Positions 2,383 to 62,151 of a stretch of DNA of 64,000 bases are shown one piece after another. A program made the position numbers and the translations under genes. A model generated the notes under the pieces. That model was not told the DNA's origin and did no database searches. It was given only the letters and a program-made list of their open reading frames with translations. Every line of letters begins with the position of its first letter. Within the stretch, counting starts at the first letter, position 1. Source of the DNA: Rhizophagus irregularis (lineage: Eukaryota); assembly GCF_026210795.1 (NCBI RefSeq), contig NC_089430.1:682001-746000 (forward strand), read 5' to 3'.

Positions 2383-4369
2383 CCCCATATTACCATATAC
2401 TTATTTATATATTTACTTGGAGCTACGCCAATATCGGTGTATAGCAGATCAATTCTATGAAGAAATTGTTTTTTTTCCATACAGAGTAAGTTATAAAAAT
2501 AATGAAAAAAACTTCCAAAGAGATTGTAGAAATCATTCAAAATTTTTCATAAAGAAATTCTTTGTCCAACGTGAATAAATTATAAATAATTAAACTTCCT
2601 GCGTAAAAAACATAAAAAAATTTTTGCAATTCTTATCAAAAAAGTTTTTTTATCAACAATGAATGGTCGTAAGAACTGGTCATTAGCGCCATATCATAGT
2701 ATCATACCAATATTAAGCATAATAACATAATGATTTCATTAGAAATCTAATTATATTTTGGCCAAAAAATGATTAAACGATTTAATTTTTTTTATTTGAT
2801 AAAATTATATTTGTTACAATTTACTATAATCATTTGATTTTTAGGAATTGTTTTTAAATCTAAATTGTAGTGTAGCGATACTACAATCGATTTATTTTTT
2901 TAAAAATTTCTTTTTTGTGGGCAAAATACACATACCAATATATCAACTTTTTTTTATACGTTTTTAAAATCTAAATTTGTAGTGTAGCAATAAAGTTGTT
3001 ATACTACAAACGATTTAATTTTTTTAAATTCTTGCTTAAATTTGTATTATTTAATTTTCATTTTTTTTCAAAATATTCCGTCATATCATTACACTTCATT
3101 TGTCACACATGCTTGAATTATTTTTTTTCCATCAGTTATACTTCGCATACTTCATATTTCGATCACGTTACCAAATTGGTTTGAATTAATTTGTGACTTT
3201 TACCCTTTTGTTCTTCAATCATTTTTTAGGATAAGTTAGTCTTAAATTTTATTTGGCTCATTTATTTATTTTACTTTTATTTTTATTTTTATTTTATTAA
3301 TTAATAAATTACAAGTTTTGAGCAGAATTTTAACATATGAGAAACTTTGAAGTGAAATTTTCAGCTGAAATGAGTGTGACGCTGTTTTTAGATTTTTATA
3401 TTATTTTCTGTTTTTACAAAACATTCAACAGTTCATTAGATTCGAGTTGAAAAGGTAAGTTTTAGATTTTTGAGAGGTTATCTTTTTTTTTAATTAACTT
3501 ATTTTTAGGGATGAAGAAATGGTGCTATTGCTTAAGATAATGTACATTGACTTTATTTTTTGCAATATTATCTAATAAAAGGGTTATCTTTAATACGAAA
3601 AACTATTGTATTTTGCAATGTATAAAAAAAAAAAAAAGTTTGGTTATTTTCATTCTCAATAATTTTTGTATTAACTATGAAAAATAAAGAAACATTTTCA
3701 AACCATTTAGAATTGTTTTAACGAGATCAAATTTCTAATTTTCTTTAATGGACCACGTCAAATTGTCAGAAGAATCAATAATATTCCTGATATTTTTTCC
3801 TTAAAATTATTTACAGAATCCATCCATTATTCGTTTTTGAACAATTATTTTGTATTCACACTTAAAATAAATGTTCAGATTTTTAAACCCTATAAAAAAT
3901 ATGATATCGTATTTTAGTATGCAATAATTATTACTACTTTAGATGGAACACAAATAGCATAGGACTTCTAAGTTCAACACAAAATCATCATGCAACATTC
4001 ATCCAAGGTCAATGATCTTTGTTTTGAACATTATAAAATTTCACTTTAAATTATTGGCTAAAAATGAAAAAAATTGTCCATTCATTCTTTGTAAATGAGT
4101 AAATGAAGAAACATAATAAAAGATTTATTGATTTATTATTTTAATAAAAACGATCCTTTATAGAAGGAAAAAAAGGTTAATTATTTATGTATCTATTTGA
4201 ACTTAAAATATTTTGTCGTAAATATACTCATTCACTACATCGTGTTACATACTAGGAACATAAATTATAGTTCAGGATACATGTGACTGCGATTATCTGA
4301 AATGGAAATAAACAAAGCAAAAGTGTACGTAATTCAGAGAATCATTCAAAAAAAGGAAATGGTTGAAAG

Positions 4370-17581: not shown

Positions 17582-18704
17582 TTTAATAAATAATTTATTA
17601 AACAAAAAAAAAGAAAGGAAAGAAAAAAGAAATAGTGGTTAAACGTTGCAATGATGTCGAGATCGGCAACAAATTATCAAAAAGACTATTAAAATACTAA
17701 AATACACAGAAACTCTAATCTTGATCGGCAATTAATTTATTCAATTTTGGCAATTGTGGCTTTTTATATAAATTCCCATAATAGGCAACGTGAGTTTAAG
17801 TTAAACTTTTACGAATGTTGAATATTACTAACCAAAATAGAATTTGAAAATTTGAGAAAGAATTCGTTAGTTTCTGTGGAATTGATATCGTATTAACAAA
17901 ATCCGAAAATAATTTATGGAGAATTGCGAATAATAATATATCTTTATAATATATATATAGTATATATATATTAAAACAAAATTATTTTGAAATATTTACA
18001 AAATCTTGTTTTTGACTTCAAATTTTCACTAAATTTTCATTTGAAAATAATTAATAAATAAATAAAATCACATCTTTAATAAAAATGTGAAATTTTAATA
18101 TTTAATAAATTCATAAATTATTGATAGACCTTTATTTAGAATATATCATATAATTTGAGCTTCAGGTTTGTAATAATAAATTGCATTTTATTAGTACTTA
18201 TCCCAGTTTTTTATTGGCTAAATTCCAGATCACATGATATAGAATCAGCTCAGAAAATTGAAACAAAATCATGTGATTGTCGAGTATCAGCACCATATGT
18301 AGATTATGAAATTACATAATATAATTTTAAAAATTATGGTAATGATGTAAAAGTTTATTCTACATGATCACCACTTTAGATGTAACAGATGTAACTGATC
18401 ATTTCCAAGTTGGTTTTAACAAAAAAAGTGCGAATTAAGAAAATGTTTTTTTCATGATTTTTGCTGTGTAACAATGAGGCTTGATGATTCATGATTGACA
18501 CACATTTCAGATATATGTGCAAAATTTGTTGTTGTACATAATGCTTGTACTTATGATCAACACTTTTGCGCATAATGCATTTTGCATAAATATTATTACC
18601 ATATATATATACTTATAAAGGTGTTTAATAATAAAAAAAAAGAAAAAAAGAATATTTACATTATCTTTTCCAGTCAGAAAGAATTTTAATATAATTGTAT
18701 AGTA

Positions 18705-21700
18705 ATGGATGATAAAGGTAATAATCAATATATAATATAAACATTTAATACAATTAGAATTCTAATATTTTTAAACAAATTTACAATATAATAAAACTAG
18801 TTTCTAGTAATATTGAATTTGAAGGAAGCAGTACTAAAGAATTTGAAGGAAATAGCTCTAAGGAATTCAAAGAAAGTGGCTTTGAAGAATTTGCAAAAAG
18901 CAGTACCAAGGAATCTAAAGGTATATTAAGCATGTAAAAATATTAAGTTTTTATATTTAAATACTATCTATAATAATTATATCTTATATAATATACAAAT
19001 ATAGCTCGTAAGTTAATATAGGTTATCTTATAACTGAATAATAATGGAATTACTTATCATTTTTATCACATTTCATGTAATTAAATAATTCATTTAATGG
19101 TTTAGTTGGTAAGTTATTAGTTATTTAAGTTATTAATTCTTTATTTTGTTATTTTGCATAATATTCAAATAACTAAATTGAGTAAATTCTTTATTTAATT
19201 AACTATTTAATAATTAATTGTGTTACAGAAGGTAAGTTACAATATCATATTTATTTGTTTAATATTTATATAACTTAACTAATTATATTCTTAATTTAAA
19301 TAACTAGATTGTAAGTGATATATTTATTTACAGTAATTACTTTTATATTATATTTATATTTAACTAATACAGTAATTAATTAATAATACTAGGGTGTAAG
19401 TTATAGAATACTTACATTTCTATTATTTAAATTAACTAAATTAACTAAATTCTTTATTTAAAAAATTATTTTGTAATTTCTTTAGTTGGTAAGTTATAAG
19501 TTATTTATTCATAATAATTACATATAATTTAAACTAACTAAATTTTTTATTTAAACAGATCGTAAGTTATAATTTATTTATTTAATTCTATTATTACTTA
19601 TTGTTATAATATTTTACATATAATTTAAACTAACTAAATTCTTTATTTAATAAATTATTTAATAATATAGATAGTAAGTTATTTAATTCTTGTTATAATA
19701 TTTAAATGTAATTTAAATTAACTAAATTCTTTAATTAAAAAATTATTTTCTAATTTCTTTTAGTTGGTAAGTTATAAGTTATTTATTTAATTCTATCATA
19801 ACTCATTGTTGTGATATGTACATATAATTTAAACTCACTAAATTCATTATTTAAAAAATTATTTAATAATATAGGGAGTAAGTTATTTATTTAATTCTAT
19901 TATTACTAAGGATGCTCATTGGTCCTAAAAGATCATGGTCTTACAGTCTTACACCTTGAAAAGACAAACCAGTCCATCTTGGTGTAGGACTGTGGTCTTT
20001 CAGCCCTATATCACATACAATAAGACCATCAGTATTTTTAAGAACCACAGTCTTTTTAAGACTGATCAGTTTTTTTTGCTTTTTTTTTTTGCAAACAAAA
20101 AAATTTTTTGAGCTTTAAATTTAATATAAAATCATTTATTATGAGAAGACCAGTATGAGGACTGGTCAGTCCTCAGGACCAGTCCTACTGCACACAAAAA
20201 AATGCAAAACCGTGGTCTGGTCCTACAAGTCCTGGGACTGACCAGTCTAGGGTTGAGTAGGACCAGTAGGACCAATGATCATCCTTATTAGTTATTACTT
20301 ATTGTTATAATATTTGCACATAATTTAAACTAACTAATTTCTTTATTTAAAAAATTATTTAATAATATAGAGAGTAAGTTTTTTATTTAATTCTATTATT
20401 AACAATTGTTATAGTATTTACATATAATTTAAACTGACTAAATTCTTTATTTAAAAAATTATTTAATAATACAGGGAGTAAGTTATTTATTTAATTCTAT
20501 TATTACTTATCATTATAATATTTGCATAAAATTTAAACTAACTAAATTCTTTATTTAAAAAATTATTTAATAATATAGAGAGTAAGTTATTTATTTAATT
20601 CTATTATTACTTATTGTTATAATATTTACATATAATTTAAACTAACTTATTTCTTTATTTAAAAAATTATTTAATAATATAGGGCGTAAGTTATTTATTT
20701 AATTCTATTATTATTGTTATAATATTTACATATAATTTAAACTAACTAATTTCTTTATTTAAAAAATTATTAAATAATATAGAGCGTAAGTTATTTATTT
20801 AATTCTATTATTACTTATTGTTATAATATTTATATATAATTTAAACTAACTAAATTCTTTATTTAAAAAATTATTTAATAATATAGAGAGTAGTAAGTTA
20901 TTTATTAAATTCTATTAATATATTATTTTAATTTAACTATTACATATAATTTAATTAGACTAACTATAATATTTACATATAATTTAAACTAACTAATTCT
21001 TTATTTAAAAAATTGTTTAATAATATAGAGAGTAGTAAGTTATTCATTAAATTCTATTATTATATTATTTTAATTTAAATATTACATATAATTAGACTAA
21101 CTATAATATTTACATATAATTAAACTAACTAAATTCTTTATTTAAATAGATTGTAAGTTATAAGTTATTTCTTTAATACTATTATTCCTTATTGTCATAA
21201 TATCCACATAGAAATTTAAACTAACTAAATTCCTTATTTAAAAAATTATTTTGTAATTTCTTTTAGTTGGTAAGTTATAAGTTATTTATATAATTTGATT
21301 ATAACTCATTGTTATAATATTTACATATAATTTAAACTATCTAAATTCTTTATCTAAAAATATTATTTTATAATATAGGAAGTAAGTTATTTATTTAATT
21401 CCATTATTACTTATTATTACAATATTTCATATAATTTAAACTAATTAAATTCTTATATGATTTTGCTATTGCTTATTGTTATGATATTTACATATATTTA
21501 AACTAACTAAATTCTTTATCTAAAAATTTATTTAATAATATAGGGAGTAAGTTATTTATTTAATTCTATTATTACTTATTGTTATAATATTTTATATAAT
21601 TCAAACTAACTAAATTCTTTATTTAAATAGATTGTAAGTTATAAGTTATTTATTTAATTCTATTATTACTTATTGTTATAATATTTGCACATAATTTAAA

Positions 21701-24700
21701 CTAACAAAAATTCGTTATTCAAAAAATTATTTTGTAATTTCTTTTAGTTGGTAAGTTATAAGCTATTTATTTAATTTTATTATTACTTTTTGTTATAATA
21801 TTTATATGTAATTTAAACTAACTAAATTCTTTATTTAAAAAATTATAGAAAGTAAGTTATTTACTTAATTCTATTATTAACTATTGTTATAATATTTAAC
21901 TAAATTTTTTATTTAAAAAATCATTTAACAATATATTTACTTGTACTATTATTACTTATTGTTATAATATTACATATAATTTAAACTATCTAAATTCTTT
22001 ATTTAAATAGATCGTAAGTTATAAATTTTCATTTAATCCTATTACTATTACTTATTGTTACAATATTTACATATTAAAAAAATATTTTGTAATTTGTTTT
22101 AGTTGGTAAGTTATAAATTATTTACTTAATTCTATTTTATAATGTTTACAAATAATTTAAACTAAATAAATTCTTTATTTAAATAGATCGTAAGTTATAT
22201 TTAATTCTTGTAATATTTTACATATTATTTAAACTAACTAAATTCTATTTAAAAATTATTTAATAATATAGAGAGTAAGTTTTTATTTAATTCTGTTATT
22301 ACTTATTGTTACAATATTTATATATAATTTAAACTAATTAAATTCTTTATTTAAAAAATTATTTTGTAATTTCTTTTAGTTAGTAAGTTATAAGTTATTT
22401 ATATAATTCTATTATTACTTATTGTTATAATATTTACAAATAATTTAAACTAACTAAATTCTTTATTTAAAAAATTATTTTGTAATTTCTTTTAGTTAGT
22501 AAGTTATAAGTTATTTATTTAATTCTATTATTATTTATTGTTATAATATTTACATATAATTTAAACTTACTAAATTCTATTATTTAATAGATCGTAAGTT
22601 AAAGTTATTTATTTTAATTCTATTAATACTTATTGTTATAATATTTACATATATCTAAACTAACTATAATATTTACTATGTATAATTTAAATTAATTATA
22701 ATATTTACATATAATTTAAACTAACTAAATTCTTTATTTAAATAGATTGTATGTTATAAGTTATTTATTTAATTCTATTATTACTTATTGTTATAATATT
22801 TAATATGATTTAAAACTAACTAAATTCTTTATTTAAAAAATTATTTTATAATTTCTTTTAGTTGGTAAGTTATAAGTTATTTGTATAATTTTATTATTAC
22901 TTATTGTTATAATAATTACATACTATTTAAACTAACTAAATCTTTATTTAAAAAATTATTTAATAATATAGGGAGTAAGTTATTTATATAATTCTATTAT
23001 TACTTATTATTATAATATTTACATATAATTTAAACTAACTAAATTTTTTATTTAAATAGATCGTAAGCTATAAGTTATCATTATATAATTCTATTATTAC
23101 TTATTTGTTATATAATTTAAACTAACTAAATTTTTTATTTAAAAAATTATTTTGTAATTTCTTTTAGTTGGTAAGTTATAAGTTATTTATTTAATTCTAT
23201 TATTACTTATTGTCATAATATTTACATATAATTTAAACTAATTATATTCTTTATTTAAATAGATCGTAAGTTATAAGTCATTTATTTAAATCTATTATTA
23301 CTTATTGTTACATTATTTACACATAATTTTAAAAAATTATTTTGTAATTTCTTTAGTTGGTAAGTTATTAGTTATTTATTTAATTCAATTATTACTTATT
23401 GCTATGATATTTATACTATATAATTTAAACTAACTAAATTCTTTATTTAATAATATAGAGAGTAAGTTATTTATTTAATTCTATTATTATTTATTGTTAA
23501 TATTTACATGTAATTCAAACTAACTAAATTCTTTATTTAAAAAAATTATTTAATAATATAGGGAGTAAGTTATTTATTTAATTCTATTGTTACTTATTGC
23601 TATAGTATTTACATATAATTTAAACTAAATAAATTCTTTATTTTTATTTAAAAAATTATTTTGTAATTTCTTTTAGTTGGTAAGTTATAAGTTATTTATA
23701 TAATTCTATTATTACTTATCATTATAATATTTACATATAATTTAAACTAACCAAATTCTTTATTTAAAAAATTATTCATTTAGTTGGTAATTTATAAGTT
23801 ATTTATTTAATTCTATTATTTACTTATTGTTATAATATTTACGAATAATTTAAACTATAATATTTATACATAATTTTAACTAATTTTAATATTTTATATA
23901 TGATTTAAACTAACTAAATTCTTTAATTAAATAGATCGTAAGTTAAAGTTATTTATTTTAATTCTATTAATACTTATTGTTATAATATTTATATATAATT
24001 TTAAACTAACTAAATGCTTTATTTAAAAAATTATTTAATGATATAGGGGGTAAGTTATTTATTTAATTCTATTGTTGTTATAATATTTACATATAATTTA
24101 AACTAACTAAATTCTTTATTTAAATAGATCGTAAGTTATAAGTTATTATATAATTCTATTATCACTTATTGTTATAATGTTTACATATAATTTAAATTAA
24201 CTAATCCTTTATTTAAAAATATTTAATTATATAGAGAGTAAGTTATTTATTTTATTATATTATTATTTATTGTTATAATACTTAAACTAACTATAACAGA
24301 TAATATTTACATATAATTTAAACTAACTATAATATTTATACATAATTTTAACTAATTTTAATATTTTATATATAATTTAAACTAACTAAATTCTTTAATT
24401 AAATAGATCGTAAGTTAAAGTTATTTATTTTAATTCTATTAATACTTATTGTTATAATATTTACATGTAATTTAAACTAACTAAATTCTTTATTTAAATA
24501 GATCGTAAGTTCTAAGTTATTATTTAATTCTATTATTACTAATTGTTATAATGTTATCATATAATTTAAACTAACTAAATTCTTTATTATATTTAATAAT
24601 ATAGGAAGTATGTTATTTATTTAATTCTATTGTTACTTATCATTATAATATTTATATATCATTTAAACTAACTAAATTCTTTATTTAAAAAAATTATTTT

Positions 24701-27700
24701 GTAATTTCTTTTAGCGGGTAAGTTATAAGTTATTCATTTAATTCTGTTATTATTTATTATTATAATATTTACATGTAATTTAAACTAATTTAATTCTTTA
24801 TTTAAATAGATGGTAAGTTATAAGTTATTATATAATTCTATTACCGTATTTTGCGGTAAGTAAGCACCCCGAAAATAAGCACCCCGGCCAGAATTATGGC
24901 GATTTTGGCCAAAATTATGAGGATCTTGGACGGCATTAAGTGCAAAAGGGGATGCTTATATACCACAAAATATGGTATTACTTATTGCTATAATGGTTAC
25001 ATATAATTTAAATTGACTAAATTCTTTATTTAAAAACTTATTTCATAGCTAGTAAGTTATTTATTTATAATTCTATTATTACTTATTGTTATTATATTTA
25101 CATATAATTTAAACTAACTAAATGCTTTATTTAAAAAATTATTAAATAATATAGGGAGTAAGTTATTTATTTAATTCTATTATTACTTATTGTTATAATA
25201 TTTACATATGATTTAAACTAACTAAATTCTTTAATTAAATAGATCGTAAGTTAAAGTTATTTATTTTAATTCTATTAGTACTTATTGTTATAATATTTAT
25301 ATATAATTTTAAACTAAATTATTTAAAAAATTATTTAATGATATAGGGGGTAAGTTATTTATTTAATTCTATTGTTGTTATAATATTTACATATAATTTA
25401 AACTAACTAAATTCTTTATTTGAATAGATCGTAAGTTATAAGTTATTATATAATTCTATTATCACTTATTGTTATAATGTTTACATATAATTTAAATTAA
25501 CTAATCCTTTATTTAAAAATATTTAATTATATAGAGAGTAAGTTATTTATTTTATTATATTATTATTTATTGTTATAATACTTAAACTAACTATAACAGA
25601 TAATATTTACATATAATTTAAACTAACTAAATTCTTTATTTAAATAGATCGTAAGTTATAAGTTATTATATAATTCTATTATCACTTATTGTTATAATGT
25701 TTACATATAATTTAAACTAACTAAATCCTTTATTTAAAAATATTTAATTATATAGGGAGTAAGTTATTTATTTTATTATATTATTATTTATTGTTATAAT
25801 ATTTAAACTAACTATAACAGATAATATTTACATATAATTTAAACTAACAATAATATTTGTACATAATTTTAACTAATTTTTAATATTTATATATAATTTA
25901 AACTAACTAAATTCTTTAATTAAATAGATGGTAAGTTATGTTATTTATTTAATTCTATTATTACTTATTGTTATAGCATTTACATATAATTTAAACTAAC
26001 TAAAATTCTTTATTTAAATAGATTGTAAGTTATAAGTTATTTATTTAATTCTTGTTGTAATATTTATATATATTTTGACTGACTAAATTCTTTATTTAAA
26101 TAGATTGTAAGTTATAAGTTATTTATTTAATTCTATTATTACTTATTGTTGCAATATTTATATATAATTTTGACCGACTAAATTCTTTATTTAAATAGAT
26201 TGTAAGTTATAAGTTATTTATTTAATTCTATTATTACTTATTTTTATAATACAGTGACACCTTTCTAAGTGCACTCCCTTTGGTATTATAATAAAAAATA
26301 GTAGAATGTGCAGTGTGCATTTATAGAAAGTAAAATATTAAGAGCTCTAATAAGTTGGTACCAGTCCCACTGCACTTAAAGAGAATTTGTATAGTACATG
26401 CACTTATAGAGGGTGCACTTATAGAGGTGTCACTGTATTTACATATAATTTAAACTAACTAAATTTTTTATTTAAATAGATTGTAAGTTCTAAGTTATTT
26501 ATTTAATTCTAATATTACTTATTGTTATAATATTTACATATTGATATAATTTGGGCTAACTAAATTTTTTATTTATAAAAATTATTTAATAATATAGCTT
26601 GTAAGTTATTTGTTGTTTTTATTATTATATATTTATAAATATTTATTTGTTAATTGAATTCTATTCATATAAAATTTCTGTTACTTTAGTTGGTAAGTTG
26701 TGAAATATAGGCTATTATCATATATATTTATATGCAAAACTAAACATATATTATAATTAATTTCTATTTAAATTTTAGAGTAAGTAGTGTTGATTTTAAT
26801 CTTAAATTTAGTGTAATTTTTAATATAACTTTAATAATTATTTTAATTGTTTAATATATATATATAGATATGGAAAAAGTGGAAATACAATTATAGATAA
26901 TTTTATTTTAGAAAAAAAGTTAAAATGGATTCCCTACGATGAATTTAAAGATGTTAAATATCTTGATAAAGGAGGATTTGGTACTATATACAAAGCTATT
27001 TGGTATTATAATCATAAAGAAGTAATTCTTAAGTGTCATAATAATTTAAATGAAAATTTAAATGAATTTTTAAATGAAGTATGATAATATATTATTTATT
27101 TTTTAATTTGAATTATAATTTATTTATACTAATATATTATCACTTTTTTATAGTGGGAATATCATGAAAGTTGTTTAAATTCACATGATATTATTTATTT
27201 TTATGGGTTTACAAAAGATCCAGATACTTTAAAATATATGGTAGTAATGGATTATGCAAATAAAGGTAATTTAAGAAGAAACTTAACAAGAATAATCAAA
27301 AGTGGTTGGTATCAAAAATTATATATGTTATTTGGAATTATTTCTGGACTTAATGATATACATGAACAAAATCTTATCCATTGTGACTTTCATGATGGCA
27401 ATATTTTAAGACATAGTGAAAAAAAAATTTATATTAGTGATTTAGGATTATGTAAACCTGTAAAATCATTTTTGAAAGAATATAAGATTTATGGTGTTAT
27501 ACCATTTATGGCACCAGAAGTTTTAAGAGGCAAACCTTATACTCCAGCTAGTGATATATATAGTCTTTCTATGATTATGTGGGAATTTACATCTGGGACA
27601 CCTCCATTTAATAATAGAGCACATGATTTACAACTTAGTTTAAGTATTTGTGAAGGTGAACGTCCTGAAATTATTGAAGATACTCCACAATGTTATGTAG

Positions 27701-28065
27701 ATTTGATGAAAAAATGTTGGAATGAAAACCCATCAAAAAGGCCATCTTCTAAAAAAGTGTTAAATATTATTAAAAAATGGATTTCTCTTTCTGATAATGT
27801 CAAAATTGAAGATATTAATGAAGAATTAAAATGCAATATTATGGAATTTATAAATGCACCAATTGGGCATAACAATAATCTTGCTACTGAATCTCACCCA
27901 CAGGCATATTATACAAGTCGCTTACTTAGTTTTACTAGTAAACAGTTAAATGAAATTCTCAAAAGTAGAGATTTGCAAGTTTATTATTCAAGTCGATCTA
28001 TTAGTGAAAAAGTGAATGAAATTCTTGAAAGTGAAGATTTACAAGCTAGTGTAAAAAGTGAATAA
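18705..28065 (+). CDS. TKL-like protein kinase with a microexon-encoded N-terminus (~71 exons, ~486 aa predicted)
   Basis: Exons are 18705-18717 (MDDK), 18801-18920, ~66 microexons in 19005-26692, a 1-nt exon at 26779, then 26868-27078 (YGKSGNTIIDNFI..WIPY..KGGFG..VILK) and 27154-28065 (HCDFHDGN, DLG, FMAPE). Phases are consistent and no stop appears. The kinase portion is high confidence; linkage to the upstream exons is inferred. Confidence 0.75.
19907..20287. mobile_element. MITE (hAT-like termini) inserted in an array intron
   Basis: TIR TAAGGATGCTCATTGGTCCTA / TAGGACCAATGATCATCCTTA with many AGGACC/GGTCCT/CAGTC subterminal motifs. The TSD is not clean. Confidence 0.75.
24844..24975. mobile_element. 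Tc1/mariner-pogo-like MITE in an array intron
   Basis: TA TSD and TIR CCGTATTTTGCGGTA..TAAGCA / TGCTTA..TACCACAAAATATGG. Confidence 0.8.
26252..26435. mobile_element. Tc1/mariner-pogo-like MITE in an array intron
   Basis: TA TSD and TIR CAGTGACACCTTTCTAAGTGCAC / GTGCACTTATAGAGGTGTCACTG. Confidence 0.85.
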
Positions 28066-28540
28066 AATGCTACCAGTAAGTAAAGATTAGTATATAAAAA
28101 GAATTAATTTTGCAATTATTTATGTAAAATTAATTTTATTTATTTAATTATTTAGATATTAAAACTGATAAAAAATAACTAGTAAATATTGGTGTTTATA
28201 AGAATTTATAGTTTTTTTATAAGTGATATTTGATGTCATGCATTTAACAGAAATTATTGTTTAGATTTATTTAAACACTAAAGCTAGAGTACTAGTAAAA
28301 TATTTTACAATATTCTTAGTTTGTAATTTAAATAATTCCTTTTTTTATATCTTATTCATATATGTATTTTCTTTTTTTTGAATTATTTAAACACTAAGGC
28401 TAGAGTAGTAAAATTTTACAAATTTCTTAGTTTGTAATTTAAATAAATCTTTTTTTTTAGCTTTCCAATTATTAAATATAACTAGAAATGTGTCTAATAC
28501 CAGGGACTCCATCCCTGGACAACCTTGTCAGTAATGTCAA

Positions 28541-33875: not shown

Positions 33876-36800
33876 ATGTCAGAAAAAGTATTGTGTAAAT
33901 GTTTTATTTGTAAAGCAAAAAACCCTGAATTAGGCGGTAAGTATCATACCTTTCCAACTGTAAAAAAGCATAGAAAAAAAGAACTTGAATGGATAAAAAA
34001 TACAAATATGAATAGCCAAAGTATTGAAGTAAGGTGAGTTTTTTCAGTTTAATACTAAGTAAACTAAAAACTTAACTAATTTTTATTTATATTAATAAAA
34101 GTGATAGGGGCGATAATATACAATTTCAAGATTTTTATCAAAATACTGATTTAACTATGGATGAGTTTCATGATAAATTATTACAAGATAATAATTTAAA
34201 TAATGATAATGACTTACAAGATTTAAGTGACAATGATAACTCGCTAGATGATAACAATTATGATAACTTAGAGGATTATGAAAATTCAAGTGATGGTAGC
34301 TTAAAGGATTATGAAAATTCAAGTGATGGTAGCTTAGAGGATTATGAAAATTCAAGCAATGGTAGCTTAGAGGATTATGAAAATTCAAGCAATGGTAGCT
34401 TGCAAGATGATTATTATATGCAAGAATTAGATCAAGAATATAATAATTATGATGCACAAGAAACATCATTTACGGACGACTTAAATAATAGTAAGCTTTG
34501 ATTTATATCTTTATATTATATTTAAATAATAGCTTATATAGTATTGCTAACGAAATTTCAACTTATATAGATGACTTCAAATTAAATATATCTCAAGACT
34601 TGGCACAAGCATTACGACTTTTTGAAATTAAAGTTCGATGCAATTTAACTGATAACGCATTGAATCAGATCATGAGAGCAAGCAATATTTCAATCAGTAT
34701 TTATCAAATAAAAAAAACATTAAAAAAATTGGTAAATACTGAACCACAGTGGATTGATATGTGTATTAATTCCTGTTGTGCATATACAGGACAATTTGAG
34801 AATGAAATGCTATGTCCTTATTGCAATAAATCTAGGTATGATCAAAAAAAAACCGCGTTACCAATTTGCGTGTTTTTCCCTTATAAAGCATTTAAAAATA
34901 CAATATGAGAATCCAAATTGTGCAAATGAGTTACGTTATCAATATATATACATAACATGTAATGGATTTGGCGAAGATGGTAAAATAGGAGATGTATTTG
35001 ATGGAAAATGTTATTTAGATCTTTTGAAAATAGGATAAATTCAAGATGAGCATGATATTGCTTTAACTGGCTCTGTAGATGGTTATCAGATCTTTCGTCA
35101 AAAAACTGAAACTTGCTGGATATTATTATTTATCAATGCAAATCTTTCACCAGAAAAATGGGTACTTAAGGAAAATTTATTAATTACATCAATAATTCCT
35201 GGACCAAAGGAGCCAAAAGATTTTAACTCATTCATGAATCCAATAGTTGATGAACTTAAGGAATTAGCCAGTTAAGTTTTATTTACAATTATAATTATTA
35301 TAATGTAATTAAATAATTAAACTATTTTTAATTAAAATCTTTTATCTTATAAAGGAGGTACTGACTGTATAGATGGCAATACCAAGAATCATTTTATTTT
35401 AAAAGCACATGTTTTGTCATGGTCGGGTGATACACCTGGCCTGACAAAACTAAAGTGTTTTACTGGCCATAATTCATATAAGGGATGTCGCTATTGTAAT
35501 ATTAAAGGAATCTGTGTAAAACATGTATACTTTTCTACCATTCCTCCGATAGGATCCAATAATTTAATGAGCTACGATGCAAATAATTTACCCTTAAGAT
35601 CACATGAAGAATATGAAAAAATAATACGAAATTTAAATTGTATAATAACACAACAAGCAATTGAATCTTTACAACGAAATTATGGTAAGTTTTTATTAAT
35701 CTATTATAATAAATATACTATCTAATAATAATATATATTAACTATAATATCAGGAATAAAAAATCAAAGTATATTATATGATCTACCTTCAATCAAATTT
35801 CCATCTTCTTTTGCATTAGATATAATGCACCTAATGTTTGAAAATGTTGCAAAATATATGGTTAAGCATTGGTTTGGTGTATTTTTCAAAAATGTTGGCG
35901 AAAATAGTAATAAACCATATATACTTAATAAAACTATATGGACCGAAATTGGAAATCTAATGCATACAGCTCGTAAAATGATTCCATCTTATCTTGGACG
36001 CCCACCTCGTAATATTACTCTTTATTATAATAGTTATAAGGCAGAAGAATGGATGGCCTGGATTATTATGTATTCCTTACCTTTGTTAAAAGATAAGCTT
36101 TCAATAAAATATTATGAAGGTTGGGCTTTATTTGTTAAAGCAGTTAGATTATGTAAAAAATTATGTTTATTTGAAGAAGATATATCAGAAATTAAAATTT
36201 TATTATTAAATTTTTATAAGCATTACGAAAAGTAAGTATACATTAATTTATTTAATTAATTTTTAAAAAAATTAATAATATTATTTAATGCAAAATATTT
36301 ATTATATTTCATTATAATATTTTAAATTAATATTTTTATTACTTTATTTTATTTGTAGAGAATATTATGGCGGTATTAAAGAAAATATCAGTGCAATAAA
36401 ACTTTGTTTTCATTACTTATTACATGTAACTGATAGTATTAGAAATACAGGTCCTTGTTGGGCCACTTGGCAATTTCCCATGGAGCGTATATGCGGAATG
36501 TTAATTCCATTGGCAAAATCATGTTTACATCCCTATAAAAATATTATTAATAACGTATATCTTATGGAATTATTTAACCATCTCCCTTATCATGAAATTT
36601 ATCAACATGTTTTTTTATCAAAATCATCTCCAAAGCAATATGCTCAGCATTTAATATATACTGATGAATATTATTTTGAAGAATTTTATTTTCCTACTAA
36701 AAAACATATTCTTTCACAAATTCAACTTAAAAAAATAAAAGAAAATTTATCAACATCATATAATAATATAACTGATTTAAATTTAAATGTAAGTACAGTT

Positions 36801-60485: not shown

Positions 60486-62151
60486 ATGGATCAATCAAAT
60501 ATAGAAGAACAAAAATATGGAAGATGTATAGGATGTAAACAAATAAGTACATCACTCTTATGTTATACTTGTGATTCACTTTTTAAAGAAAGAAAATCTG
60601 GAAAGTGTATAGTATGCAAACAAATAAAGCAAAAAGCTAAGGGAACAAGAACATGTCATACTTGTTATTCAACTTCTCTAGAACAAAAATATGGAAAGTG
60701 TATAGAATGCAAGCAAATAAATACTGGAATTGATTGGTGTCAAACTTGTAATTCAAAAAGATTTCAACAAAATTTTAACAATTGGACTAGTAATAATGAT
60801 GATATTGATAAATTTATTCAAAATATTCAGTTATCAGCAAGAAATAAATATCAATTATTAGAGTGGATACCCTATGATAGATTTTCTGAAGTTGTATATG
60901 TTGCAAAAGGAGGATTTGGCAAAGTATATAAAGCAATTTGGCAAGATGGCAAGATATCACATTGGGATGTGAGTAAAAATCAATGGGAAAGAAATAGTGT
61001 GCGTATGCACGTAGCTCTTAAAAGTTTAAATGACTCTCAGAACCTCAAATCACAATTTATCAAGGAGGTAACAAAATTGGGTTATTGAATTTTTTTTCGA
61101 AATATTTTTGTTTTGCAAATTATAATAAATTTTGATAATTTAGATTACGTCACAACTCAAAATAGTTGAAGATAGACCACTGAACCAATTTATTAGATGC
61201 TATGGAATAAGTCAAGACCCAAATACAAAAGAATATATCATGGTTATGAAATTTGCTGATTGGGGAGGTTTGCGAAATTATTTTGATAAGAAAGAAAAAT
61301 ATGAAAAGAAATCGCGTGAAGAAAATATCCTCTATTTGAAATTGAGACGTAAAATTATTGTTATGAATTGTATTGCAACTGGGCTTAAGAGAATTCATGT
61401 AAAAGGATTAATTCATAGAGATTTACATACCGGAAATATAGTATGTTTTAAAAGTATGATTTGTATAACTGATATGGGATTATGTAAACCAGCAAATTAT
61501 GAGGAATTAGAAAATTCAGAAAATAATGCGTATGGCGTTTTACCTTATGTAGCACCTGAGGTTTTAAGAGGAGAACATTATACACAAGCATCCGATATTT
61601 ATAGTTTTGGCATAATTATGTATGAGGCAATTTCGGAAATGCCTCCATATTATGATATTAATCATGATGAAGTTTTAGCAGTAGAGATCTGTAAAGGGTT
61701 AAGACCCAATTTTAATATTAAAGTACCACAATTAATCATTGAATTAATAAAGAAATGCTTAGATGCAAAACCATCAAATCGACCAAATGCAAAGGATCTT
61801 TCAAGAATTTTTAAAGAATTAATGATAGATTTTAATAGACGTAAACCAGAATTAATTAAACAAATTGAAGAAATAAGCAATAGTTTATCAGATTTACCTT
61901 CAATAAATAAAATGAATACGATGCATTCTGGAGCTATATATACAAGTAGATTACTTAGTTTTAAAAATCTTCCCGAACCGAAAAATTCTGATGATTATTA
62001 TGAATATTTTGATAATATAACAAGTATGAAATATTCAGGTATTTATAAAAAATCTTACCTTATTACTCATTCAATCTACTTATATAAACTAATATTTAAT
62101 AAATATTTTTATGTAATGACAGAATGTTTGGATTGTGAAGTTAAAGATTGA
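60486..62151 (+). CDS. TKL-like protein kinase with three N-terminal CxxC-CxxC repeats, 3 exons (60486-61067, 61144-62038, 62123-62151)
   Basis: Motifs WTSNN, WIPY, AKGGFG, VALK, HRDLHTGN, DMG, YVAPE and SDIYSFG. GT-AG introns keep the frame. Confidence 0.92.

What the first reader, a model, noticed from the sequence alone, without database searches (positions are those of the whole stretch)
26693..26870. A 1-nt exon (A at 26779) supplies exactly the phase correction the kinase needs
The last unit reads TTTTAG|A|GTAAGT. Upstream exons and all 3/6-nt microexons stay in phase 1, while the kinase exon at 26868 (A|TAT GGA AAA AGT GGA AAT) needs phase 2. The single A closes the gap, so one Glu codon (G+A+A) is drawn from three exons. 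This phase match is independent support that the array is coding. Inference: skipping this base would frameshift the kinase and could act as an on/off switch. Single-nucleotide exons are very rare.
Basis: partly seen in the sequence, partly recalled or inferred. Interest (0 to 1): 0.88.

Follow-up and report, generated by a model that had tools for sequence, protein, structure and literature searches.

The report
Real one-base exon in kinase gene
A Rhizophagus-type fungal kinase gene carries a one-base exon that RNA assemblies show joined into the message and that three related genes keep; it holds the reading frame between a chain of 66 tiny exons and the kinase domain, and would be about the third such nuclear exon described.

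Summary
A at 26779 lies between TTTTAG and GTAAGT, and the kinase exon starts at 26868.

Two RNA-type contigs reach upstream of 26868 (runs X1 and X2, one study). Both read ...CTT-TTG-A-ATATGG. No listed record in the four runs joins TTG directly to ATATGG.

Contigs from runs X5 and X2 join exon 1, exon 2 and the first 10-11 microexons exactly as predicted.

The assembled ORF is 486 codons with no stop, running from ATG 18705 through 66 microexons of 3-6 nt. G(26692)+A(26779)+A(26868) form Glu113. Without the A, a stop follows at codon 122.

All three of the closest related metagenome loci keep TTTAG|A|GTAAGT and the downstream acceptor, although their introns have diverged.

The on/off-switch idea has no support so far.

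One-base exons are in print for Arabidopsis APC11 and Fusarium CYP621A. Arrays of codon-sized microexons are in print for the Tuber nank genes. This scan has noted one-codon exon arrays on other DNA before, but not this one-base exon.

The parts
18658..18717 (+). Exon 1: 5' UTR (at least from 18658) plus the start codon ATG at 18705 (ATGGATGATAAAG). Ends in phase 1.
   Evidence: X5 contig piece 18658-18715, joined with cut +2 (exon ends at 18717), 0 other letters. Sequence.
18718..18800 (+). Intron 1 (83 nt, GT..AG).
   Evidence: Joint 18715->18799 (cut +2) in an X5 contig.
18801..18920 (+). Exon 2 (120 nt), an acidic, Ser-rich EFEG/KEFK repeat. Ends in phase 1.
   Evidence: X5, X2 and X14 contigs cover it. 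Similar N-termini occur in P0003, P0009, P0016 and P0099.
19005..26692 (+). Array of 66 microexons (64 of 3 nt; two of 6 nt at 20887-20892 and 21029-21034). They are separated by 70-493-nt introns, mostly of one tandem-repeat family (GTAAGT ... CTAAC ... TAG). The last two microexons are CTT 26598-26600 and TTG 26690-26692.
   Evidence: Seen letter for letter in RNA-type contigs: the first 10 (X5), the first 11 minus AAG (X2) and the last 10 (X1).
26693..26778 (+). Intron upstream of the 1-nt exon (86 nt, GTAAGT...TTTTAG). Not a member of the repeat family.
   Evidence: blastn-short against the array gives only a 16-nt match. Position conserved in L001-L003.
26779..26779 (+). One-nucleotide exon (A), the middle base of the Glu113 codon.
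   Evidence: An X1 contig has 30 visible loose letters ending ...CTTTTGA directly before 26868. An X2 contig has the letters ATTATTCTTTTGA between 26482 and 26868. Conserved in 3 of 3 related loci.
26780..26867 (+). Intron downstream of the 1-nt exon (88 nt, GTAAGT...TATAG). Not a member of the repeat family.
   Evidence: Both contigs that reach this boundary begin their exon match exactly at 26868 (table 8).
26868..27078 (+). Kinase exon A (211 nt): SGN..ID.FI motif, glycine loop (KGGFG) and the beta-3 lysine (VILK). It has no in-frame ATG.
   Evidence: P0001. X1 contig covers 26868-27078 with 0 other letters. Homologues are Rhizophagus kinases.
27079..27153 (+). Intron (75 nt, GTATGA...TATAG).
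   Evidence: X1 has zero depth over 27089-27147.
27154..28075 (+). Kinase exon B: the rest of the kinase domain (HCD...N, DLG, APE) and the tail. Stop codon TAA at 28063-28065, then the start of the 3' UTR.
   Evidence: P0002. Pfam Pkinase E 2.4e-33 and PK_Tyr_Ser-Thr E 1.8e-32.
28076..28155 (+). 3' UTR intron (80 nt, GT..AG).
   Evidence: Joint 28075->28156 in an X1 contig and in 2 raw poly-A RNA reads of X23.

Best explanation
The A at 26779 is a genuine one-nucleotide exon of a Rhizophagus-type protein kinase gene. The short introns on either side of it (86 and 88 nt, GTAAGT...TAG) are both absent from the spliced message, which reads TTG-A-ATATGG.

Shown:
- The gene is exon 1 (ATG 18705), exon 2, 66 microexons of 3-6 nt, the 1-nt exon, and two kinase exons.
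- Joined in that way the ORF is 486 codons with no stop.
- G26692 + A26779 + A26868 make Glu113.
- Leaving out the A gives a stop at codon 122.
- Exon A, which carries the glycine loop and the catalytic lysine, has no in-frame ATG, nor does the intron read-through just upstream. A complete kinase can therefore only be translated from ATG 18705, through the chain and the A.

Inferred:
- The upstream 3' splice site and the downstream 5' splice site touch the same base, so the two introns are likely removed one after the other. Each removal would recreate an ordinary splice site (ttttag|AATATGG or TTGA|GTAAGT), as in recursive splicing.
- Recognition likely relies on intron definition with near-perfect signals. 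GTAAGT is present in 63 of 70 introns and TAG in 67 of 70.
- The three last introns do not belong to the repeat family, and their layout recurs in relatives of 64-75% identity. The 1-nt exon is therefore likely an old, constitutive feature of this kinase subfamily, with the long array amplified later upstream of it.
For: 1. Sequence anatomy and phase.

2. RNA-type contigs at the 1-nt exon.
- X1 record 2 (368 nt) matches 26868-27078 with 0 other letters. It carries 156 loose letters before 26868. The 30 visible letters equal the concatenation of the last 10 three-nt microexons plus the A: (A)GA, ATC, GGA, ATG, ATT x4, CTT, TTG, A.
- An X2 contig joins 26482 to 26868 with ATTATTCTTTTGA between them.
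- That is 2 of 2 records reaching upstream of 26868, from 2 runs of one study.
- X1 has zero depth over 26558-26852 and 27089-27147 while the exons are covered. It also shows a GT..AG joint in the 3' UTR. So it behaves as RNA.

3. The 5' end of the gene.
- An X5 contig (another study, 0 other letters) joins exon 1 to exon 2 and runs on for 159 letters. These begin with exactly the first 10 predicted microexons.
- An X2 contig runs on for 242 letters with the same chain minus AAG. The predicted chain is 205 nt.

4. Conservation. L001 (75% identity), L002 (64%) and L003 (67%) all read TTTAG|A|GTAAGTA, then 72-100 nt of diverged intron, then AG|A(T/C)(A/T)TGGAA. The block TTTAGAGTAAGTA is invariant in 4 of 4 sequences. 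In L002 the upstream microexons CAT and TTG plus the A again give S-F-E before YG.

5. No alternative start. The in-frame read-through upstream of 26868 has stops and no ATG, and P0001 has no Met.

6. The kinase looks intact. Pfam Pkinase E 2.4e-33. VILK, HCD..N, DLG and APE can be read directly.
Against: - The runs that carry the joined form are listed only as 'RNA? (a guess)'. The session offered no check of whether the joined form also exists in DNA runs (section 5b), so a processed DNA copy is not formally excluded.
- Only 30 letters of each loose end are visible. That makes 21-22 of the 67 microexons seen letter for letter; the rest rests on contig lengths.
- The two contigs showing the A come from one study.
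- The raw poly-A runs X23 and X24 are mostly 95-99% alike, so they probably hold paralogues or another strain. They give no listed joint or loose end at 26868 for this gene.
- The X2 joint 26779->26871 carries ATT where this gene has ATA, so it probably comes from a paralogue and is not counted here.
- X14 contigs show a variant chain (agreement 0.88).
- Translation of the message has not been shown.
- No public protein model contains this exon A; the best identity is 81-83%.
Confidence: 0.85

Rival explanations
1. Regulated switch. The 1-nt exon would be alternatively skipped. The frameshifted message (stop at codon 122) would be degraded or would yield a truncated protein, so inclusion of the A would turn the kinase on or off.
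For: Skipping the A gives a premature stop nine codons into exon A. Microexon skipping does occur in this gene: the AAG at 19229-19231 is absent from the X2 contig but present in the X5 contig.
Against: No listed record in any of the 4 runs joins 26692 to 26868, and 2 of 2 bridging contigs carry the A. The A and both of its splice sites are invariant in 4 of 4 loci, as expected for a constitutive exon. Contigs hide rare forms and the raw reads were too few, so this is absence of evidence only.
Confidence: 0.08
2. No 1-nt exon is ever spliced. The contigs would come from a genomic copy (an allele, another nucleus type, a paralogue or a processed retrocopy) in which A and ATATGG are already contiguous.
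For: The runs are not on record as RNA. The joined form could not be checked in DNA runs (section 5b). The fungus has very many paralogous kinases (239 hits).
Against: - The X1 contig matches exon A with 0 of 211 other letters, and its chain letters match this locus's microexon order exactly.
- Partly spliced forms occur in the same runs: an intron kept while the chain downstream is already joined (X2).
- An AAG-skipped form also occurs. Both are typical of RNA processing, not of one DNA copy.
- Intron stretches have zero depth in X1.
- All 3 related genomic loci keep the intron after the A.
Confidence: 0.04
3. The transcript is spliced as seen but the gene is a decaying member of a huge family. 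The microexon chain would be an untranslated or meaningless leader, so the phase match would have no protein-level consequence.
For: A stop-free chain is not significant on its own: 1544 of 20000 shuffles are also stop-free. The chain peptide matches no Pfam family (exon 2 tested; the chain itself could not be submitted). Three transposon-like inserts sit inside the array. No annotated protein holds this exon A.
Against: The ORF from ATG 18705 to TAA 28063 is open over 486 codons across 70 introns. The kinase motifs are intact. S-F-E before YG recurs in L002, built from different microexons. The inserts lie in introns, and at least the first is spliced out (X2 chain passes from GGA to AGA).
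Confidence: 0.1

Closest known systems
Single-nucleotide exon of Arabidopsis thaliana APC11 (Guo & Liu 2015, PMC4674806; abstract and outline seen)
   Same: A constitutive 1-nt exon between two canonical spliceosomal introns. It is needed for the reading frame and was missed by annotation.
   Different: That case is a plant gene with a single isolated tiny exon, validated with GFP-fusion splicing assays. Here the exon is in a fungal kinase, is the last element of a chain of 66 other microexons, recurs in several paralogues, and is supported only by RNA assemblies and conservation.
One-nucleotide exon of Fusarium CYP621A P450 genes (Nelson & Syed 2026, PMC12940212; abstract and outline seen)
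   Same: A fungal nuclear gene in which the single base is the middle base of a codon. Omitting it breaks exon phase. It is supported by public RNA reads and by conservation among homologues.
   Different: That case is in Ascomycota and concerns orthologues of one P450, with the base lying inside a conserved catalytic-fold motif (the PKG glycine). Here the fungus is of the Glomeromycotina type, the exon sits in paralogues of an expanded kinase family, and the base lies in a linker just before the kinase domain, next to 3-nt exons.
Codon-sized microexons of the Tuber melanosporum nank (NACHT-ankyrin) genes (Iotti et al. 2012; seen only as cited in a passage of PMC4986451)
   Same: Multiple 3-nt exons in an expanded fungal gene family, with alternative splicing of individual codons. 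Here the AAG microexon is skipped in one contig.
   Different: A different fungal phylum and a different protein family. I did not see the original paper, so unit numbers, and whether it has a 1-nt exon, cannot be compared. Here there are 66 consecutive units on a tandem intron repeat, closed by a 1-nt exon.
Micro-exon genes (MEGs) of Schistosoma mansoni (bioRxiv 10.1101/2023.06.21.545858; abstract seen in a search listing)
   Same: Genes built largely of very short exons of symmetric phase, so that skipping keeps the frame.
   Different: MEG exons are 3-81 bp, separated by long introns (up to 5 kb), and encode secreted proteins. Here almost all are 3 nt with introns of about 100 nt in tandem repeat, feeding into an intracellular-type kinase domain. 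The 1-nt exon is asymmetric, so it cannot be skipped without a frameshift.
Recursive splicing at zero-length exons (Drosophila ratchet points; recalled, not looked up here)
   Same: A 3' splice site directly abuts a 5' splice site, so removing one intron regenerates a usable site for the next. This is the likely way a 1-nt exon is handled (inferred).
   Different: At a ratchet point nothing remains in the mRNA, and the purpose is stepwise removal of one long intron. Here one base remains and it is needed for the frame.

Membership tests
Constitutive single-nucleotide exon | A single base flanked directly by a canonical 3' splice site (AG) and a 5' splice site (GT) | tested here: met
   TTTTAG|A|GTAAGT at 26773-26785. 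It is the only AGAGT between 26693 and 26867.
Constitutive single-nucleotide exon | The mature transcript carries exactly that base between the neighbouring exons | tested here: met
   The X1 and X2 contigs read ...CTT TTG A | ATATGG. That is 2 of 2 records reaching upstream of 26868. The runs are RNA by behaviour, not by record.
Constitutive single-nucleotide exon | The base is needed for exon phase and the reading frame | tested here: met
   With the A the ORF is 486 codons and open. Without it a stop falls at codon 122. There is no alternative in-frame ATG.
Constitutive single-nucleotide exon | The layout is conserved in homologues | tested here: met
   L001, L002 and L003: 3 of 3 loci of 64-75% identity that include the upstream sequence. 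It is absent from the more distant subfamily L004-L012.
Constitutive single-nucleotide exon | Splicing shown by experiment (reporter or RT-PCR), with no form lacking the base | not testable with these tools
   Only assemblies and thin raw reads were available. No form without the A is listed in the 4 runs.
Protein kinase (Pfam Pkinase / PK_Tyr_Ser-Thr) | A profile match above the curated cut-off | tested here: met
   P0002: PF00069 116.1 bits (cut-off 31.7) and PF07714 113.1 bits (cut-off 23.1).
Protein kinase (Pfam Pkinase / PK_Tyr_Ser-Thr) | Catalytic residues present: beta-3 Lys, catalytic Asp and Asn, the DFG-type Asp, and APE | tested here: met
   Read directly: VILK in P0001; HCDFHDGN, DLG and APE in P0002. 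The motif names are recalled from general kinase knowledge.
Frame-switching regulatory exon (unproductive-splicing switch) | Both forms, with and without the exon, are present and change with condition | tested here: inconclusive
   Only the form with the A was seen. The data cannot reveal rare forms or conditions.
Recursive splice site (zero-length exon) | AG|GT juxtaposed with nothing left in the mRNA | tested here: not met
   One base lies between AG and GT, and it is retained in the contigs.
Tandem arrays of codon-sized microexons (Tuber nank type) | Several consecutive 3-nt exons, all spliced into the mRNA, with some alternatively skipped | tested here: met
   61 YAGNNNGTAAGT sites against 0.51 expected. 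The first 10-11 and last 10 units are seen joined. AAG is skipped in X2. The family definition is taken from one citing sentence.

The most novel reading that the evidence does not exclude
A whole subfamily of Glomeromycotina kinases builds the segment in front of the kinase domain one codon at a time, from tandem arrays of intron-plus-codon cassettes. This gene has 66 such microexons, all spliced in, closed by an ancient conserved 1-nt exon that locks the frame. The arrays grow by cassette duplication and vary by skipping single codons. That would be a splice-based generator of peptide diversity in a massively expanded signalling family, and this gene would be the most finely fragmented coding sequence known.
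Probability: 0.35. Interest if true: 0.9.

Novelty: new variant of a known kind. Interest (0 to 1): 0.75.

Why it matters
By the published count (abstract of PMC12940212) this would be about the third nuclear one-base exon and the second in fungi. It would be the first seen in several paralogues and as part of a microexon chain.

It shows that a fungal spliceosome can accurately handle dozens of consecutive exons of 1-3 nt using intron signals alone. That bears on how exons and introns are recognised.

It also explains why public gene models of this large Rhizophagus kinase family have odd or truncated N-termini. Several appear to translate intron ends. Annotation of arbuscular mycorrhizal genomes would therefore need tools that are aware of microexons.

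If the chain is translated, tandem cassette duplication plus codon skipping would be a cheap way to evolve and vary a protein segment.

Tried and rejected
- Whole genome of the window: not held, so no genome-wide census of paralogues was possible.
- Run search: no RNA holder listed. The runs used are 'RNA?' by guess and were judged by what the lay showed.
- Motif statistics: YAGNGTAAGT occurs 2 times against 0.46 expected, and 8 of 100 shuffles reach 2. Not significant alone.
- Stop-free chain: 1544 of 20000 shuffles of microexon order are also stop-free. Not significant alone.
- X2 joint 26779->26871 (plus 1 X23 read): it carries ATT instead of ATA. It therefore probably comes from a paralogue like L001, or from a copy without that intron. 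Not counted for this gene.
- Raw poly-A runs X23 and X24: most reads are 95-99% alike and depth on exon A is about 2-4. No joint or loose end at 26868 is listed (39 loose-end rows were not shown). They say nothing about the forms with or without the A.
- X14 contigs: a variant chain (agreement 0.88), so probably a paralogue or another strain. Not used.
- Protein searches with exon A: no public protein above 83% identity, so no existing model of this gene could be compared.
- Laying reads on the whole 18.6-28.2 kb gene was not attempted, because the tool turns away long repeats. The middle 45 or so microexons were therefore not seen letter by letter.
- Earlier findings by place and by sequence: nothing.
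- Literature: Rhizophagus + microexon gave 3 papers, none relevant by title or abstract. 'Rhizophagus irregularis' + micro-exon gave 0. Rhizophagus + introner gave 1, not relevant. I therefore found no description of these arrays or of this 1-nt exon in that library. Subscription journals are not covered.
- Other kinase genes in the window have no arrays and are only 37-51% identical, so they did not help.
Full report
WHAT IS IN THE SEQUENCE

The window is very AT-rich: 12-30% G+C in 2-kb windows.

At 26773-26785 it reads TTTTAG|A|GTAAGT, with the A at 26779.
- Upstream lies an 86-nt intron (26693-26778) that begins GTAAGT straight after the 3-nt microexon TTG (26690-26692).
- Downstream lies an 88-nt intron (26780-26867) ending ...TATAG.
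- The next exon starts at 26868: A|TAT GGA AAA AGT GGA AAT.

THE GENE AROUND IT

From 19005 to 26692 there are 66 sites of the form (T/C)AG|NNN|GTAAG(T): 64 of 3 nt and two of 6 nt.
- YAGNNNGTAAGT occurs 61 times in the window against 0.51 expected. Sixty of the 61 lie in this stretch and all are on the + strand.
- The spacers are introns of 70-493 nt, mostly one tandem-repeat family (TRF periods of about 94-117).
- Of the 70 introns in the CDS, 63 begin GTAAGT. Sixty-seven end TAG and 3 end CAG. Fifty-two carry CT(A/G)A(C/T) 10-43 nt before the 3' end.

Upstream are exon 1 (ATG at 18705, ending at 18717) and exon 2 (18801-18920).

Downstream are kinase exon A (26868-27078), a 75-nt intron and exon B (27154 to the stop at 28063-28065).
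- Exon B matches Pfam Pkinase (E 2.4e-33) and PK_Tyr_Ser-Thr (E 1.8e-32).
- The lysine (VILK), HCD..N, DLG and APE can be read directly.
- The nearest proteins are kinase-like proteins of Rhizophagus irregularis, R. diaphanus and R. clarus, at 81-83% identity or less to exon A. So the organism is a Rhizophagus-type arbuscular mycorrhizal fungus, and this exact gene has no public protein model.

PHASE

Joined as above, the CDS is 1458 nt = 486 codons with no stop.
- Exons 1 and 2 leave one base over, and every 3- or 6-nt microexon keeps that phase.
- Exon A needs two bases carried in.
- Without the A, the frame runs into a stop at codon 122.
- Exon A has no Met.
- The in-frame read-through of the last intron has stops and no ATG.
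- The chain has no Met in the kinase frame.
- A kinase with its glycine loop and catalytic lysine can therefore only be made from ATG 18705, through the whole chain and the A.

IS IT MORE THAN CHANCE?

Not from the motif: 2 matches against 0.46 expected, and 8 of 100 shuffles reach 2. Not from the 1-in-3 phase match. Not from the open chain: 1544 of 20000 order shuffles are also stop-free. The weight comes from RNA and from conservation.

RNA EVIDENCE

The run search listed no holder on record as RNA. Runs X1-X14 are 'RNA?' by guess, and X23 and X24 are raw poly-A RNA reads of another organism label.

Laid on 26440-28200:
- X1 covers the exons in pieces with 0 other letters.
- X1 has zero depth over the introns 26558-26852 and 27089-27147.
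- X1 shows a GT..AG joint, 28075->28156, in the 3' UTR. Two X23 reads show it too.
- It therefore behaves as RNA of the same strain, or nearly so.

Contigs at the 1-nt exon:
- X1's 368-nt contig matches 26868-27078 exactly and carries 156 more letters upstream. The 30 that are shown equal the last ten 3-nt microexons in genomic order plus the A: (A)GA 25535-37, ATC 25648-50, GGA 25756-58, ATG 25928-30, ATT 26022-24, ATT 26104-06, ATT 26199-201, ATT 26480-82, CTT 26598-600, TTG 26690-92, A 26779.
- An X2 contig joins 26482 to 26868 with ATT ATT CTT TTG A between. It is anchored in an intron end, so it looks like a partly spliced molecule.
- So 2 of 2 records that reach upstream of 26868 have the A. 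Both are from one study.
- No listed record in the 4 runs joins TTG directly to ATATGG.
- Neither TTG nor ATATGG has an A next to it in the DNA (TTGg..., ...gATATGG), and AGAGT occurs only once in between. Two canonical splices around 26779 are therefore the only simple source of that A.

Laid on 18600-19500:
- An X5 contig (another study, 0 other letters) joins exon 1 to exon 2 (intron 18718-18800). It runs on for 159 letters that start with exactly the first ten predicted microexons: CTC, TTG, AAG, ATT, GGT, TTG, ATC, ATA, TTG, GGA.
- An X2 contig runs on for 242 letters with the same chain but without AAG (19229-19231), and with the next microexon AGA (20371-20373). That AGA lies beyond a 493-nt intron holding a transposon-like insert.
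- The predicted chain is 205 nt. The contig lengths (159, 242 and 156) are therefore compatible with full coverage of the chain. Only 21-22 of the 67 microexons were seen letter by letter.
- X14 (a third study) shows a variant chain (agreement 0.88), probably a paralogue or another strain. It is not used.

CAVEATS

- The session gave no check of the joined form in DNA runs, so a processed DNA copy is not formally excluded. Against it stand the partly spliced form, the AAG-skipped form and the exact match to this locus.
- The X2 joint 26779->26871 (plus 1 X23 read) has ATT where this gene has ATA. It most likely comes from a paralogue such as L001. It hints that the intron after the A can be removed while the one before it is still present, but it is not evidence for this gene.

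CONSERVATION

Of 22 related metagenome loci, three are close (64-75% identity) and include upstream sequence.
- All three read TTTAG|A|GTAAGTA, then 72-100 nt of diverged intron, then AG|ATTTGG, ATATGG or ACATGG.
- The 13-nt block around the A is invariant in 4 of 4 sequences, while the introns differ in length and sequence.
- In L002 the preceding microexons CAT and TTG, with the A, again give S-F-E before YG, as in this gene.

The three last introns of this gene are not members of the repeat family (only 13-23-nt matches). So the terminal CTT/TTG/A layout looks ancestral and the long array looks like a later amplification upstream (inference).

More distant kinases were also examined (L004-L006 and L008-L012, 40-45% identity).
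- They too have arrays of 3-nt microexons, on a different intron repeat.
- Their final exon keeps phase 1 directly (...aatag|ATAATAAA), and they have no 1-nt exon.
- L007, L014, L015 and L017 have an ordinary continuous exon there.

Several public models look like mis-readings of the same layout (inference).
- 4 of the 31 proteins fetched begin ...NLE(F/Y)GKSGN or ...LILESGKSGN, as if the upstream intron end plus the A were translated.
- 3 of 31 have ...IYRFGKSGN, like this window's own intron read-through ...IYIYRYGKSGN.
- P0099 and P0100 carry G/I/L/E/V-rich runs before the kinase that look like annotated microexon chains.

HOW IT LIKELY WORKS

Shown: the base is retained in the message and sets the frame.

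Inferred:
- The upstream AG and the downstream GT touch the same base, so the complexes that mark a 3' and a 5' splice site can hardly sit there together. The two introns are probably removed in sequence.
- Either order regenerates a normal site (ttttag|AATATGG or TTGA|GTAAGT), as at recursive splice sites.
- Recognition would rest on intron definition, with short introns and near-consensus GTAAGT, CTAAC-type branch sites and TAG.

The switch idea has no data behind it. Only forms with the A were seen, and the invariance of the site fits a constitutive exon. The data could not reveal rare isoforms.

COMPARISON WITH WHAT IS KNOWN

- One-base exons are described for Arabidopsis APC11 (PMC4674806; abstract seen).
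- They are also described for Fusarium CYP621A (PMC12940212; abstract seen, which calls it the second example and the first in a fungus).
- A placozoan mitochondrial case appeared only as a title in the search listing (PMC5436844).
- Schistosome micro-exon genes have longer exons and long introns (abstract).
- Searches for Rhizophagus with microexon, micro-exon or introner found nothing relevant.
- Earlier notes of this scan describe arrays of one-codon exons in other genomes (HET genes, protist genes), but none on this genome and none with a 1-nt exon.

VERDICT

- The core interpretation (a real 1-nt exon that restores the kinase frame, within a coding spliced array) is supported. The switch is not.
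- It is a new case of a very rare but known kind of exon, in an unusual setting: the last link of a 67-microexon chain, kept across paralogues.
- Confidence that the 1-nt exon is real and constitutive: about 0.85.

Noticed in passing
window 19005-26692: The apparent 7.7-kb AT-rich satellite is a run of 66 introns separated by 3-nt (twice 6-nt) exons. The unit types end in ATC/ATT, GGA/AGA or TTG/TTA and are arranged in higher-order repeats (TRF periods 94-499). RNA-type contigs show the first 10-11 and the last 10 joined. With 71 coding exons over 9.4 kb this is an extreme gene structure.
   Followed up: partly
window 19229-19231: The microexon AAG is present in the X5 contig but absent from the X2 contig. 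This is in-frame skipping of a single codon and removes one Glu.
   Followed up: partly
window 19899-20295, 26248-26439 and about 24846-24975: Higher-G+C inserts sit inside array introns. Two have terminal inverted repeats (29 nt at 86% and 32 nt at 88% complementarity) and look like miniature inverted-repeat transposable elements (MITEs). The third shows no inverted repeat. The intron holding the first is spliced out in the X2 contig.
   Followed up: partly
L004-L006 and L008-L012 (e.g. L008:1735-2847, L011:208-1427): A more distant kinase subfamily (NWTSG(H/N)EFIDKF type, 40-45% identity) also has upstream arrays of up to 14 or more 3-nt microexons, on a different intron repeat. The last exon is entered directly in phase 1, so there is no 1-nt exon.
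   Followed up: partly
L002:1-190: Upstream of the short microexon chain in L002 lies an open frame resembling the C-terminal part of another kinase domain. The chain may link two kinase domains there, as in the two-kinase protein P0018 (646 aa).
   Followed up: no
X1 loose end at 26484: An X1 contig carries 148 letters of a different triplet chain (TTG ATC ATC ATC ATC AAT GGA ATT TTG AAT...) running into a retained intron of the same repeat family. Other arrays elsewhere in the genome therefore seem to be expressed and spliced too.
   Followed up: no
proteins P0099, P0100, P0003 and P0016: Public Rhizophagus models hold short odd segments between the EFEG-repeat exon and FGKSGN: G/I/L/E runs, or 'DGK' and 'ACK'. 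These could be spelled by 3-nt microexons plus a 1-nt A. If so, a few transcript-based models already contain such chains without anyone having commented on it. Not checkable without their genomic DNA.
   Followed up: no
window 28076-28155: An 80-nt GT..AG intron lies in the 3' UTR, 10 nt after the stop codon. The joint is seen in an X1 contig and in 2 X23 raw RNA reads.
   Followed up: partly
window 17347-16133 (-), 57347-56379 (-), 60858-62016 (+): Three further kinase genes of the same superfamily lie in the window (37-51% identical in the kinase domain, 68% over a 28-residue stretch). None has a microexon array.
   Followed up: no
window 2482-2491 and 33931-33942: Isolated matches to the microexon motifs (CAG|A|GTAAGT and TAG|GCG|GTAAGT) lie outside the array. 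Not examined; they may be chance or ordinary donors.
   Followed up: no
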